Source: a virus (Duplodnaviria; Heunggongvirae; Uroviricota; Caudoviricetes). Taken from it: a stretch of DNA of 48,195 nucleotides. Shown here piece after piece: positions 1 to 43,872 of this stretch. The translations under genes were made by a program, and so were the position numbers. Below the pieces are notes generated by a model. The model searched no databases, was not told the origin of the DNA, and was given only the letters and a program-made list of their open reading frames with translations. The stretch lies in IMG/VR virus record IMGVR_UViG_2519899780_000006. One strand, given 5' to 3'. Numbering within the stretch: position 1 is the stretch's first letter; each line of letters starts with the position of its first letter.

Positions 1-582
1 TTACTCTGCAGGTGAAGTCGGCCACTCAATATCAGGTGCAGTTGATGTATCAACACGGTTCAGCAACACCCGATACTTTTTCCAGGCTTCCAGCAATGAG
101 GTTTCTTCCTCCGTTGCAATTTCCAGATCTGCAGCATCCTGAAGCGGCGCAATATGCTCACTGGCTACCTGCATCAGGTTGTTTTTTGTTTCTTCCGCCT
201 CCCGGATCCGGAACAGTTTTTCTGCTTCCGTATCCTTCACCCAGGCTGTGCCGTTCCACTTCTGAAACTCCCCTTCCGGCGATAACCAGGTAACATTTTC
301 CGGTAACGGACCGAGTTCAGAAATAAATAACTCGTCCCCTGACGCTACGTCATAAACCGTTTTACCCCGATGGTCTTCAACGAGATGCCACGATGCCTCA
401 TCACTGTTGAAAACAGCCACAAAGCCAGCAGGAATATCTGGTGGTGCAATATCGGTACTGTTTGCTGGCAGACCTGTATGAGGCGGAATATATGCGTCAC
501 CTTCACCAATAAATTCATTAGTTCCGGCCAGCAGATTATAAATTTTTATGGTCCGTGGTTGTTCACTCATTCTGAATGCCAT
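1..582 (-). CDS. tfa: Tail fiber assembly protein Tfa
   Basis: 193-aa ORF beginning [24 protein letters not shown], near-identical in my recollection to lambda Tfa; stop codon at window positions 1-3; follows stf as in lambda. Confidence 0.9.
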
Positions 583-29114: not shown

Positions 29115-29341
29115 GTCCATAAGAAAGCCCCTCCGGAGAGGGGCTGGAGAGTGGCGCTATGTGCCATTGCATGGTGCCGGGTGCCTCCCGGTGAATTCAG
29201 TACCAGCACCTGAATCCGCGATTATCCCATATACCTACTCGCTGATTGCCCCTCCGCACAGGGGGATTCACCATGCCAGTTTCTTTTAACAAACTCCCCG
29301 CAAAACAGACAACTGTCAACCGTCTGAATTGTGAGACATTT

Positions 29342-29381: not shown

Positions 29382-29458
29382 TGGCGCGTTGTACTGGATT
29401 CGAACCAGTGACCGATTGCTTAGAAGGCAATTGCTCTGTCCGGCTGAGCTAACAACGC
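29382..29458 (-). tRNA. argO: tRNA-Arg (anticodon UCU)
   Basis: 77-nt cloverleaf folded by hand: acceptor GCGTTGT/ACAACGC, D stem GCTC/GAGC, anticodon loop CUUCUAA, T loop TTCGAAT, 3' CCA encoded. Confidence 0.85.
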
Positions 29459-29474
29459 AGGATACAGATAATGA

Positions 29475-29548
29475 ACCGCCTTCGGGGACCCGAACTCCGC
29501 GCAACCAGCTTCGAAGGCTGGCGCTCTATCCTGATGAGCTAATGGCGG
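29475..29548 (-). tRNA. argN: tRNA-Arg (anticodon UCG), slightly imperfect
   Basis: About 74 nt; anticodon loop CUUCGAA; T loop TTCGGGT; one mismatch each in acceptor and T stems; no encoded CCA. Ends approximate. Confidence 0.6.
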
Positions 29549-29555
29549 TATGTGA

Positions 29556-29631
29556 TGGTGGCCCTTGCTGGATTTGAACCAGCGACCTGGCGATTATGAG
29601 TCGCTCGCTCTCACCACTGAGCTAAAGGGCC
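29556..29631 (-). tRNA. ileZ: tRNA-Ile2 (anticodon CAU), ileX/ileZ-like
   Basis: 76 nt reading GGCCCTTTAGCTCAGTGGTGAGAGCGAGCGACTCATAATCGC...CCACCA, close to E. coli ileX as recalled. Confidence 0.85.
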
Positions 29632-33560: not shown

Positions 33561-33839
33561 TTACCTCCAGATGCGTTGCTGGAATGTGCGGGACGGACGC
33601 GGTGGTCGTTCGGAGTAAGGAAGCCTGACGGAGATTATCCAGTGACGATAATCGAGGCTGAGGGCTTTCTTAATCTCGTATCCGTGTCTGCGGTAGCACT
33701 GAATTAGCCACTCGGCCTGTTCTTCAGTGCATGGGGGATGCTGGAACCAGTCAGATTTGAAAGTGCGGGAACGCCGCCCGTGCCTGCTGGCAGGGGCGGC
33801 AGAGTTATCCGAATTGTAAAATTTGGTATCGTGCGCCAT
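33561..33839 (-). CDS. Hypothetical small protein
   Basis: 92 aa from internal ATG 33837-33839 (MAHDTKFYNSDNS...); between hok and the 349-aa gene. The ORF track version runs to 33968. Confidence 0.35.
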   Translation of the reverse strand: MAHDTKFYNSDNSAAPASRHGRRSRTFKSDWFQHPPCTEEQAEWLIQCYRRHGYEIKKALSLDYRHWIISVRLPYSERPPRPSRTFQQRIWR

Positions 33840-34006
33840 CTGTTTTCTCTGCTGGCGCAGCAGGTGCCAGTTGTTCAGGCTGACGGATGGATTGTAAACC
33901 AGAACGACCAGAAAAAACAAAACCCGCCGAAGCGGGTTAAGTGCGGGTGCGTTGAGGATGCCTGACACATCAGCGGTGGCGAGGGATTTCTCCCCCGCCG
34001 GGTCTC

Positions 34007-34162
34007 TTACTCCTCAGGTTCGTAAGCTGTGAAGACAGCGACCTCCGTCTGGCCGGTTCGGATTCGTACCTCGCAGAGGTCTTTCCTCGTTACCAGTGCC
34101 GTCACTATGACGGTTAAACAGATGACGATCAGGGCGATTAACATCGCCTTTTGCTGCTTCAT
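34007..34162 (-). CDS. hokD: Hok/Gef-family type I toxin
   Basis: 51-aa ORF MKQQKAMLIALIVICLTVIVTALVTRKDLCEVRIRTGQTEVAVFTAYEPEE, hand-translated; absent from the ORF track (under 60 aa); matches HokD/RelF as recalled. Confidence 0.85.
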   Translation of the reverse strand: MKQQKAMLIALIVICLTVIVTALVTRKDLCEVRIRTGQTEVAVFTAYEPEE

Positions 34163-34420
34163 AGCCTGCTTCTCCTTGACCTTTCGGTCCGTAAGAGGCT
34201 AATCTCTATGTGTCGCATAGATATGGCCTCAGATTAATGTTAAGCGTCTTGCAGGACGCGTAATGTTAACTGGGGCTTTTCTCTATCTGCCTTTTGGTGT
34301 TCATGCCTGAGACAGATAGCCTCAAGCACCCGCAGTCATTCTACTTAACTAAGATTTCCCCGCAAACCGTTTTTGTCCGGCACAGTAAATATCCAACTAA
34401 ACCAATGGCGTTCGCTGTAT

Positions 34421-34600
34421 TTACCGCCAGTATTCAATGCACATGACCGCCATGAACACCCCTAAAAAAAGGGCATTTATATATCCAAATATTAATATCA
34501 AAACATCAACTTTTTCCATATACCTTGCTGTGAAGATGATGGGCATACATGATACGAACAACCAGAACGCAACAAACAAAAACTGCAATGCGTTTTTCAT
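34421..34600 (-). CDS. Hypothetical 59-aa two-TM membrane protein
   Basis: MKNALQFLFVAFWLFVSCMPIIFTARYMEKVDVLILIFGYINALFLGVFMAVMCIEYWR; AGGAGG 5-6 nt upstream of ATG 34598-34600; inside a markedly AT-rich islet. Confidence 0.45.
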   Translation of the reverse strand: MKNALQFLFVAFWLFVSCMPIIFTARYMEKVDVLILIFGYINALFLGVFMAVMCIEYWR

Positions 34601-34829
34601 TATTCCTCCTACAATCAATGTGCAATTACATTTAAACACACCTCAATTTGGCCGGACATATAAATATCTAAACCAGAAAAAATCACTTACATAGCGTTAC
34701 AAACTCTTTAGTCTAAATATTCATCGTAAAACATTCCCCATACTTATCAGCCCGTTCTGCGCCAGGTAGCTCATTGCCTTATCTGGGAATCTGTAATCAG
34801 GTTTCCGGATGCTGGTGGATTTTCGCGTT

Positions 34830-43306: not shown

Positions 43307-43872
43307 TTTATCCTCCATTGAGGTTACTGGTTGAGAATGGAGACCTCTCGTGACAGCGTGTGGTCGTGCGCCGGACACGGATAAGAATCCGGCACTGACA
43401 GTTTACTGAAAGGATATTTCCCTGAAAAGTCAGACCATAACGCGAAAGCGCACGGCGAGGTAGCTGGTTCATAGATAGCCTGTCGTTAAATTTTCGTCGA
43501 CCGTGCGCTTCCGGTTGTGGCAATCCGCGAAATGGCGCGGCGGTAAGTATGGCGGGGTTATTCCTTCCCCCGTTGAGGACACCGGGTTGTCAGGTTGGCC
43601 ATACGCTTAAGTGACAACCCCGCTGCAACGCCCTCTGTTATCAATTTTCTGGTGACGTTTGGCGGTATCAGTTTTACTCCGTGACTGCTCTGCCGCCCTT
43701 TTTAAAGTGAATTTTGTGATGTGGTGAATGCGGCTGAGCGCACGCGGAACAGTTAAAACCAAAAACAGTGTTATGGGTGGATTCTCTGTATCCGGCGTTA
43801 ATTGTTAACTGGTTAACGTCACCTGGAGGCACCAGGCACCGCATCACAAAATTCATTGTTGAGGACGCGATA

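What the first reader, a model, noticed from the sequence alone, without database searches (positions are those of the whole stretch)
34007..34162. Hok/Gef type I toxin missed by the ORF track
A 51-aa ORF encodes a Hok-family membrane toxin that, as far as I recall, matches HokD/RelF exactly. Hok mRNAs are normally controlled by an overlapping mok frame and an antisense Sok RNA from the leader; here a relBE pair is not present next to it and the upstream side abuts an AT-rich foreign islet, so whether it is regulated or an orphan is open. A weak plus-strand promoter-like element (TTGACC at 34176, about 17 nt, CTAATC) lies in the leader.
Basis: partly seen in the sequence, partly recalled or inferred. 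Interest (0 to 1): 0.45.

Follow-up and report, generated by a model that had tools for sequence, protein, structure and literature searches.

The report
Complete hokD/sok toxin-antitoxin locus in prophage
The 51-codon ORF is the known membrane toxin gene hokD, here with its full hok/sok-type RNA control region (which E. coli K-12 has lost), inside a lambda-like prophage; it is an ordinary, very common and already annotated element.

Summary
ORF 34007-34162(-) encodes a Hok/Gef peptide identical to K-12 HokD/RelF. relBE is absent from the window and an AT-rich stretch lies upstream. It has a -10 box and 5' tac, ucb masking the mok SD, a mok leader ORF, dcb, a 3' fbi that pairs with tac, and a terminator. 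All 65 consensus pairs from 36 hok mRNAs form here, with covariation well above controls. K-12 hokD matches only from 16 nt before the ATG; relE replaces its leader. The locus is 91% identical to hokW-sokW of phage 933W/Sp5, an experimentally validated system. About 70% of complete E. coli genomes carry a full-leader copy, which RefSeq annotates as hokD. One local peculiarity is a 2-nt deletion that shortens mok to 19 codons ending in ATGA and removes the U from the Sok-target loop. This allele occurs in 835 E. coli records and still meets the published minimal requirement for mok. Verdict: already known, low interest.

The parts
34338..34366 (-). Predicted hok promoter: -10 TAGAAT (34343-34338), 17-nt spacer, weak -35-like TTTGCG (34366-34361)
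   Evidence: The -10 lies 6 nt upstream of the conserved 5' GGGTGC and aligns with TATGAT (R1), TATAAT (hokC) and TAGGAT (hokB). It was not reported by the strict consensus scan. Assigned by homology.
33912..34331 (-). Predicted full-length hok (mok-hok) mRNA, about 420 nt
   Evidence: The 5' end is set by the Rfam RF01794 match starting at 34331 and by alignment to R1, hokB, hokC and hokW. The 3' end is set by the terminator. MFE -169.3 kcal/mol, z=-8.3, with the 5' and 3' ends paired.
34320..34331 (-). tac (translational activator element), GGGUGCUUGAGG
   Evidence: Pairs with fbi at -21 kcal/mol. Alternative partners are the adjacent downstream segment 34314-34295 (metastable hairpin, -16.6) and ucb (-10.7).
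34271..34279 (-). ucb / anti-SD (AAAGCCCCA)
   Evidence: Pairs with the mok SD region in the full-length fold (helix 34276-34266 with 34237-34226), with compensatory AU/GC changes in relatives. Also complementary to tac. Element definition taken from PMC9841398.
34159..34218 (-). mok-like leader ORF: ATG 34218, 19 codons, stop TGA 34161-34159 overlapping the hok ATG (ATGA); SD GAGG at 34230-34227
   Evidence: The start codon is conserved at -56 to -58 in relatives, which use all three frames. The window has the short form because of a 2-nt deletion relative to 933W.
34205..34221 (-). Sok-target hairpin holding the mok AUG (UCUAUG-CGACA-CAUAGA)
   Evidence: Folds. The loop CGACA has no U, whereas R1 and hokC have CUGA in the folded loop (933W has CUGA at the aligned position, though its short segment does not fold stably).
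34194..34200 (-). dcb (AGCCUCU), part of the invariant TAGCCTCTTAC block
   Evidence: Complementary to the mok SD (-9.3 kcal/mol). It overlaps the Sok promoter spacer and -10, as described for R1. In the full-length fold, 34197-34191 pairs with 34010-34004 at the hok stop codon.
34007..34162 (-). hokD coding sequence (51 aa); SD GGAG at 34175-34172
   Evidence: The AUG region 34161-34154 pairs with 34038-34030 in the consensus structure.
34015..34029 (-). Small hairpin presenting UACG (Tyr47 codon 34024-34022) in its loop: the site type edited A-to-I by TadA in hok mRNAs
   Evidence: Stem 34029-34027 with 34017-34015; two stem pairs show 13 compensatory changes each. hokD mRNA is reported 6% edited in K-12 (PMC12214031).
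33945..33957 (-). fbi (fold-back inhibition element), CCUCAACGCACCC
   Evidence: Pairs with tac. The position (45-56 nt after the stop) and the pairing are conserved in relatives, with compensatory changes.
33912..33938 (-). Intrinsic terminator of hok mRNA: stem-loop 33938-33921 and T-run to 33912
   Evidence: identical in K-12 hokD.
34176..34205 (+). Sok promoter: -35 TTGACC (34176-34181), 18-nt spacer, -10 TAATCT (34200-34205)
   Evidence: Aligns with the sokW, sokC, sokB and R1 sok promoter regions. The sokW -10 was validated by mutation (PMC8621323). Fails the strict consensus scan.
34212..34280 (+). Predicted Sok-like antisense RNA, about 69 nt: 13-nt 5' tail, long hairpin 34225-34277, U-run 34277-34280
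   Evidence: The ends were mapped from annotated sokW (71 nt) by alignment. Fold -29.3 kcal/mol, z=-5.0. It covers the mok SD and AUG.

Best explanation
This is a complete hok/sok-type type I toxin-antitoxin cassette of the hokD/hokW lineage. It sits as a self-contained module (own promoter and terminator) in the early-right (nin) region of a Qin-like lambdoid prophage. Proposed mechanism, by homology with plasmid R1 hok/sok and phage hokW-sokW:
1. A weak promoter makes a stable ~420-nt mRNA. Its 5' tac is locked to the 3' fbi, and its mok SD is masked by ucb, so it is neither translated nor bound by Sok.
2. Slow 3' trimming removes fbi. tac can then pair with ucb, which frees the mok SD.
3. 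Ribosomes translate the 19-codon mok leader, terminate at the UGA inside AUGA, and so open or re-initiate at the hok start. This produces the 51-aa membrane toxin.
4. A short-lived ~69-nt antisense Sok RNA, transcribed from TTGACC-18-TAATCT, pairs with the mok SD/AUG region of the processed mRNA and blocks this step.
5. Toxin therefore appears only when Sok synthesis stops.

Shown here: the sequence elements, their pairings, covariation, and homology to validated loci. Inferred: transcription, processing, coupling, toxicity in this context, and the biological role (prophage retention and/or help with lysis on induction, as reported for hokW-sokW).
For: Hok/Gef domain and identity to HokD. Rfam RF01794 match to the leader, 106.7 bits against a gathering score of 59. 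Full-length fold closes 5' to 3', z=-8.3. tac-fbi is kept in nearly all of 37 distinct relatives, with compensatory changes. The consensus structure of 36 hok mRNAs has 65 pairs, 97.2% of cells paired, and 23 pairs with double-sided changes, against 10.4+-1.7 in shuffles (0/500) and 2-8 in slid controls. All 65 pairs form in the window. After removal of fbi, a tac/ucb conformer is within 0.2 kcal/mol of the MFE. The mok start is conserved at -56 to -58. R1 mutagenesis shows that mok translation is needed only up to the hok start (PMC9841398). The Sok promoter, +1 and terminator align with annotated sokW, sokC and sokB, and Sok folds as tail plus hairpin plus U-run. The locus is 91% identical over about 440 nt to hokW-sokW of 933W, which was shown experimentally to be a type I TA (PMC8621323). 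All neighbouring genes are on the same strand in a DicF...hok...DUF968-RusA-Q-tRNA prophage layout.
Against: Nothing here shows expression. Neither promoter passes a strict sigma-70 consensus scan. The window allele carries a 2-nt deletion that shortens mok and leaves the Sok-target loop (CGACA) without the YUNR-type U that R1, hokC and hokW have. The unconstrained MFE of the truncated RNA picks the 5' metastable hairpin, not tac/ucb. Chromosomal hok loci tested in the literature did not mediate post-segregational killing (statement in 10.1101/2025.08.07.668861).
Confidence: 0.88

Rival explanations
1. The locus is structurally intact-looking but silent: a decaying hok relic, as proposed for most chromosomal hok loci. 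The 2-nt deletion in the mok/Sok-target loop would be the inactivating lesion, either uncoupling mok from hok or impairing Sok recognition.
For: Relatives such as 933W, R1 and hokC have a long mok (68-71 aa) and a CUGA loop, whereas the window has a 19-codon mok and a CGACA loop. K-12 chromosomal hok loci are reported as inactivated, and chromosomal loci did not give post-segregational killing.
Against: The hok ORF is intact and identical to HokD, and all 65 consensus pairs are kept. The same allele is present at >=99% identity in 835 E. coli records. An independent 19-codon ATGA-ending mok occurs in hokC-type loci of two other Escherichia species (L016, L018). [quoted passage not shown]
Confidence: 0.2
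2. hokD here is expressed mainly as a passenger of the prophage early-right operon. On induction, antiterminated transcription from upstream reads through the cassette in the sense direction, overrides the hok terminator and collides with the convergent Sok promoter. Hok would then appear as an induction-timed helper of lysis, and not as a maintenance (addiction) module.
For: hok is co-oriented with all flanking early genes down to RusA and Q. For hokW-sokW, SokW disappears and HokW appears after mitomycin C in a RecA-dependent way, and phage release halves without the locus (PMC8621323).
Against: No promoter or antiterminator mapping was done here. hokW occupies a different place in its phage genome, so the position-dependent part is untested. 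This reading is compatible with the main explanation and does not exclude it.
Confidence: 0.35
3. A K-12-like arrangement in which hokD is the third gene of a relBE operon and has no RNA antitoxin of its own.
For: The protein and the DNA from 34176 down to the terminator are identical to K-12 hokD. The K-12-type relE-hokD junction is common, found in 1175 of 5426 genomes.
Against: relE and relB are absent from the whole window. Upstream of 34176 the window carries the canonical hok leader and not relE.
Confidence: 0.01

Closest known systems
hokW-sokW (mokW) of Stx2 phage 933W / Sakai prophage Sp5
   Same: 91% DNA identity over about 440 nt (34374-33935). Same promoter, tac, ucb, dcb, fbi and Sok layout. 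Hok differs at 4 of 51 residues. Lambdoid prophage host element. SokW (71 nt) aligns end to end with the predicted 69-nt Sok.
   Different: mokW is in frame with hokW (70 aa), whereas here mok is 19 codons ending in ATGA. The window lacks 2 nt in the Sok-target loop. The terminator region diverges. The cassette sits in the nin region here but near the right genome end in 933W.
hokD (relF) of E. coli K-12 cryptic prophage Qin
   Same: Identical coding sequence, SD, 3' UTR, fbi and terminator, and the same downstream DUF968 (ydfU-type) neighbour.
   Different: K-12 lacks everything upstream of -16 (promoter, tac, ucb, mok, Sok promoter and Sok); relBE sits there instead. The window has the full leader and no relBE. 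The ORF between hok and the DUF968 gene is unrelated to K-12 rem.
hok/sok of plasmid R1 (paradigm)
   Same: All named RNA elements are at homologous positions. The tac-fbi pairing is maintained through compensatory changes. The mok start is about 57 nt upstream of hok, and the Sok promoter lies inside the mok/dcb region.
   Different: Hok is only 45% identical (tblastn). R1 has a larger 5' hairpin insert and a shorter Sok hairpin. R1 mok is 70 codons in frame. R1 is a plasmid, not a prophage.
Chromosomal hokB/sokB and hokC/sokC of E. coli K-12
   Same: Same family and layout, with annotated Sok RNAs at the homologous place.
   Different: Different Hok subtypes. K-12 hokC is followed by IS186. 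These are core-chromosome locations, not prophage.

Membership tests
[quoted passage not shown] | Small Hok/Gef membrane toxin ORF (about 50 aa, N-terminal TM helix, conserved RKxLCE core) | tested here: met
   Pfam PF01848, 82.9 bits against 22; PHROG 251; identical to HokD.
[quoted passage not shown] | Conserved structured hok mRNA leader | tested here: met
   Rfam RF01794, 106.7 bits against GA 59, full model 1-157, ending at the hok AUG.
[quoted passage not shown] | tac/fbi long-range 5'-3' pairing that closes the full-length mRNA | tested here: met
   12 bp with one bulge, -21 kcal/mol. Present in the MFE. Conserved in position and covarying (UA/CG at column 4:425 in 10 sequences; GAGG/CCUC versus GAGA/UCUC).
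[quoted passage not shown] | mok SD sequestered by ucb (anti-SD) in the full-length form | tested here: met
   Helix 34276-34266 with 34237-34226 in the MFE and in the consensus, with 12-14 compensatory changes.
[quoted passage not shown] | Refolding after 3' processing: tac/ucb and mok SD/dcb pairings | tested here: inconclusive
   Complementarities exist (-10.7 and -9.3 kcal/mol). A tac/ucb-enforced fold of the fbi-less RNA is within 0.2 kcal/mol of the MFE, but the unconstrained MFE picks the 5' metastable hairpin. Processing itself is not testable in silico.
[quoted passage not shown] | mok leader ORF starting about 57 nt upstream and translated at least to the hok initiation region | tested here: met
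   ATG at -56 with SD GAGG. It has 19 codons and its stop overlaps the hok ATG. This is a short variant, but it satisfies the minimal requirement reported for R1.
[quoted passage not shown] | cis-antisense Sok RNA with its own promoter and terminator, covering the mok translation initiation region | tested here: met
   Promoter, +1 and U-run align with annotated sokW, sokC and sokB. Folds as a 5' tail plus hairpin, z=-5.0. Expression was not tested, and the promoter fails the strict consensus scan.
[quoted passage not shown] | YUNR (U-turn) motif in the Sok-target loop. That this is a family feature rests on my recollection of Franch et al. 1999, which I did not verify here. | tested here: not met
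   The loop is CGACA here. CUGA lies in the folded loop of R1 and hokC, and at the aligned position in hokW (whose isolated segment does not fold stably). L016 also lacks the motif.
[quoted passage not shown] | Toxicity of Hok, neutralisation by Sok, RNase III cleavage of the duplex | not testable with these tools
   Shown for the 92%-identical HokW/SokW (PMC8621323), not for this locus.
relBE-hokD (relBEF) operon of K-12 Qin | relE immediately upstream of hokD, with the hok leader absent | tested here: not met
   Homology to K-12 stops at 34176. No relB or relE in the window.

The most novel reading that the evidence does not exclude
The 'short-mok' allele may be a functional regulatory variant and not a lesion. 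It has a 19-codon leader ORF that terminates inside the hok ATG (ATGA), and a Sok-target loop without a U-turn motif. It is found in 835 E. coli records and arose independently in hokC-type loci. Hok synthesis would then run by termination-reinitiation coupling, with altered Sok binding kinetics. Placed in the sense orientation inside the prophage early operon, the cassette could be switched on by read-through during induction.
Probability: 0.25. Interest if true: 0.35.

Novelty: already known. Interest (0 to 1): 0.15.

Why it matters
It matters little beyond correct annotation. The record should carry hokD together with its mok leader ORF and an antisense sok RNA, which RefSeq records omit because they list only the CDS. 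The comparison shows that the textbook K-12 hokD is the 5'-truncated, relBE-fused form of a cassette that most E. coli carry complete. It also gives natural-variation support for the idea that only the act of translating mok up to the hok start matters, because relatives use all three reading frames.

Tried and rejected
1. I first labelled the CUCUUAC block as ucb and the GUAAGAG at the hok stop as dcb. PMC9841398 showed that ucb is the anti-SD (GCCCC arm) and that dcb overlaps the Sok promoter. I redid the tests with those definitions.
2. My first tac-versus-leader duplex search excluded the true ucb region and so picked dcb. It is superseded.
3. The controls included the reverse strand of the mRNA itself, which gave a meaningless minimum of -28.4. 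Only the control means (about -13) are usable.
4. The strict promoter scan found neither promoter, so both promoter assignments rest on homology.
5. I called the ORF downstream of hok 'rem-like' by position, but K-12 Rem shows no similarity to it, so I dropped the name.
6. The sub-threshold Rfam hits (isrK 27 bits, ceN48, ceN65, rsmX) were dismissed as chance.
7. Pfam, PHROGs and NCBIfam gave nothing for the 60-aa ORF at 34421-34603.
8. The large protein-database searches and structure prediction were not used. They were unnecessary for a 51-aa peptide identical to a named protein.

Full report
**Observation.** The minus-strand ORF 34007-34162 exists, starts with ATG and encodes 51 aa. It is a Hok/Gef peptide: Pfam PF01848 at 82.9 bits against a cut-off of 22, and PHROG 251 'MokW-like host killing'. 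Alignment with the K-12 MG1655 hokD region shows the coding sequence is identical base for base. tblastn with K-12 RelE and RelB finds nothing in the 48-kb window (best E=1.8), and there is only one hok. GC falls to 0.35-0.38 at 34400-34800, against about 0.55 downstream.

**How common it is, and how it is annotated.** The 521 bases around the ORF are 100% identical in several complete E. coli genomes, including O104:H4. A match covering at least 80% of the query is present in 3813 of 5426 complete genomes, with a median of two copies per genome. RefSeq names the CDS hokD. In O104:H4 the neighbours are early genes of a lambdoid prophage: ead/Ea22-like genes, small hypothetical genes, hokD, a hypothetical gene, DUF968, RusA, an antiterminator, a DNA methylase and three tRNAs. 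The window shows the same order, with DicF further upstream. This is a Qin-type prophage layout, and hok is co-oriented with the early-right genes.

**Relation to K-12 hokD.** K-12 and the window are identical from 34176 (16 nt before the ATG) through the 3' UTR and terminator. Upstream of that point K-12 has the end of relE. K-12 hokD is therefore a 5'-truncated copy, which agrees with the statement that K-12 hokD lost canonical TA components by rearrangement (PMC12214031). The K-12-type relE-hokD junction occurs in 1175 of 5426 genomes, so both forms are common.

**The leader.** Rfam RF01794 ('sok') matches 34160-34331 on the minus strand at 106.7 bits (gathering score 59), over the whole model. 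The model ends at the hok AUG, so it describes the sense-strand leader, and the strand of the hit is not the strand of Sok. Alignment with R1 hok, K-12 hokB and hokC, 933W hokW and a Rac-type phage hok shows these shared blocks:
- a -10 box (TAGAAT);
- the 5' GGGTGCTTGAGGC;
- AAAAGCCCC;
- the mok SD and ATG;
- TAGCCTCTTAC;
- CAAGGAGAAG just before the hok ATG.

**RNA structure.**
- The 420-nt transcript 34331-33912 folds with its first 12 nt paired to CCUCAACGCACCC (33957-33945), with z=-8.3.
- In 37 distinct relatives from Escherichia, Shigella, Kluyvera, Pseudocitrobacter, Photorhabdus and Pantoea, and from plasmids, the same pairing recurs 45-56 nt after the stop codon in nearly all. It shows compensatory changes: GGGUGC/GCACCC versus GGGCGC/GCGCCC, and GAGG/CCUC versus GAGA/UCUC.
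- An RNAalifold consensus of 36 hok mRNAs has 65 pairs. In the pair-count test 97.2% of cells are paired, and 23 pairs carry changes on both sides, against 10.4+-1.7 in shuffles (0 of 500 reach it) and 2-8 in slid controls. One caveat: the structure was derived from this same alignment.
- All 65 pairs form in the window.

With the element definitions of PMC9841398, the window has:
- tac at 34331-34320;
- a metastable partner at 34314-34295;
- ucb at 34279-34271, masking the mok SD (GAGG, 34230-34227);
- dcb at 34200-34194;
- fbi at 33957-33945;
- a terminator at 33938-33921.

When fbi is removed, a fold with tac/ucb enforced costs only 0.2 kcal/mol more than the MFE. The unconstrained MFE, however, shows the metastable 5' hairpin. 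The R1-type switch is therefore available but not proven.

**mok.** A start codon with an SD is conserved 56-58 nt upstream of hok in almost all relatives, but the reading frame differs:
- in frame with hok, 68-71 aa: R1, hokC, hokW and Photorhabdus;
- overlapping in another frame, 55-69 aa: hokB, the Rac-type phage and Kluyvera;
- 19 codons stopping at the TGA of ATGA: the window, and the hokC-type loci L016 and L018.

The window form results from a 2-nt deletion just after the mok ATG plus a 1-nt insertion further on, relative to 933W. R1 mutagenesis shows that mok must be translated up to the hok start but not beyond it, so the short form should suffice. The 61-nt stretch that carries this allele is at least 99% identical in 835 E. 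coli records, so it is not a private lesion. The deletion also changes the loop of the small hairpin that holds the mok AUG. The loop is CGACA here, whereas R1 and hokC have CUGA in the folded loop; hokW has CUGA at the aligned position, although its short segment did not fold stably on its own. From memory (Franch et al. 1999, not verified here), a YUNR U-turn in this loop speeds Sok binding, so this feature is not met here.

**Sok.** On the plus strand, the elements are TTGACC (34176-34181), an 18-nt spacer, TAATCT (34200-34205), a G at 34212, and a hairpin 34225-34277 followed by UUUU ending at 34280. These align position by position with annotated sokW (71 nt) and with sokC, sokB and R1 sok. 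The predicted 69-nt RNA folds as a 13-nt 5' tail plus a long hairpin (z=-5.0) and covers the mok SD and AUG. Neither this promoter nor the hok promoter passes the strict consensus scan, so both rest on homology. The sokW -10 has been validated by mutation.

**Closest characterised relative.** The locus is 91% identical over 34374-33935 to hokW-sokW of 933W/Sp5. That extent also marks the cassette boundaries. For hokW-sokW, HokW is toxic and SokW neutralises it. SokW disappears and HokW appears after mitomycin C in a RecA-dependent way, and phage release halves without the locus (PMC8621323). [quoted passage not shown]

**Mechanism and verdict.** The best-supported reading is a canonical hok/sok-type type I TA cassette. 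A stable, self-locked mRNA is activated by 3' trimming. Translation of hok depends on the mok leader, and an unstable antisense RNA blocks that step. The biological role (prophage retention, help with lysis on induction, or both) is inferred from relatives. Because hok is co-oriented with the early operon, sense read-through during induction could both supply hok RNA and interfere with the convergent Sok promoter, but this is speculation. The finding is correct but ordinary: the gene is named in RefSeq, the RNA family is in Rfam, and a 91%-identical system has been characterised.

Noticed in passing
window 34421-34603 (-), within the AT-rich stretch 34400-34800: A 60-aa very hydrophobic ORF (MKNALQFLFVAFWLFVSCMPIIF...) with a strong SD (AGGAGGAATAATG) lies immediately upstream of the hok cassette. 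It has no hit in Pfam, PHROGs or NCBIfam. Some RefSeq genomes annotate a hypothetical protein there. It could be a small membrane-protein moron.
   Followed up: partly
window 34015-34029 (-); Tyr47 codon TAC at 34024-34022: A 3-bp stem with loop CUUACGAAC presents UACG, the TadA A-to-I editing motif reported for hok mRNAs (Tyr to Cys). Two of the stem pairs show 13 compensatory changes each across 36 relatives, so the hairpin is under selection.
   Followed up: partly
loci L003, L004, L016, L018, L058-L060 and others, compared with window 34159-34218: The mok start codon position is conserved, but relatives use all three reading frames, including a 19-codon form ending in ATGA in at least two separate hok lineages. 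This is natural-variation support for the view that only translation up to the hok start matters.
   Followed up: yes
L029 (Kluyvera sp. CHPC 1.2972) 606-1350; also L008, L045: relB and relE, 97-99% identical to K-12, sit directly upstream of a leaderless hok whose protein is only about 70% identical to HokD. The relBE-hok fusion is therefore not a K-12 accident and appears to recombine at the junction.
   Followed up: partly
window 34160-34331 (-): Rfam family RF01794, named 'sok antitoxin', matches the hok sense strand and ends at the hok AUG. It models the mRNA leader, so the strand of a hit should not be read as the strand of the Sok gene.
   Followed up: yes
window 43647-43698 (+), 29115-29305 (-), 41-239 (-), 29382-29631 (-): DicF sRNA, STnc100, an IS009 RNA element, and three tRNA genes downstream of Q. 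ARAGORN calls them Arg-tct, Arg-tcg and Met-cat; RefSeq calls the CAT one Ile. These are typical furniture of a Qin/933W-like lambdoid prophage, with no stx genes after the tRNAs in the matching O104:H4 record.
   Followed up: no
window 33561-33839 (-): The ORF between hok and the DUF968 gene (92 aa, PHROG 1212, unknown function) occupies the position of rem in K-12 Qin but shows no similarity to Rem.
   Followed up: partly
window 33917-33998 (-): A sub-threshold Rfam match to isrK (27 bits against 50) lies over the hok 3' UTR hairpin and terminator. It is probably just a hairpin-plus-terminator resemblance.
   Followed up: no
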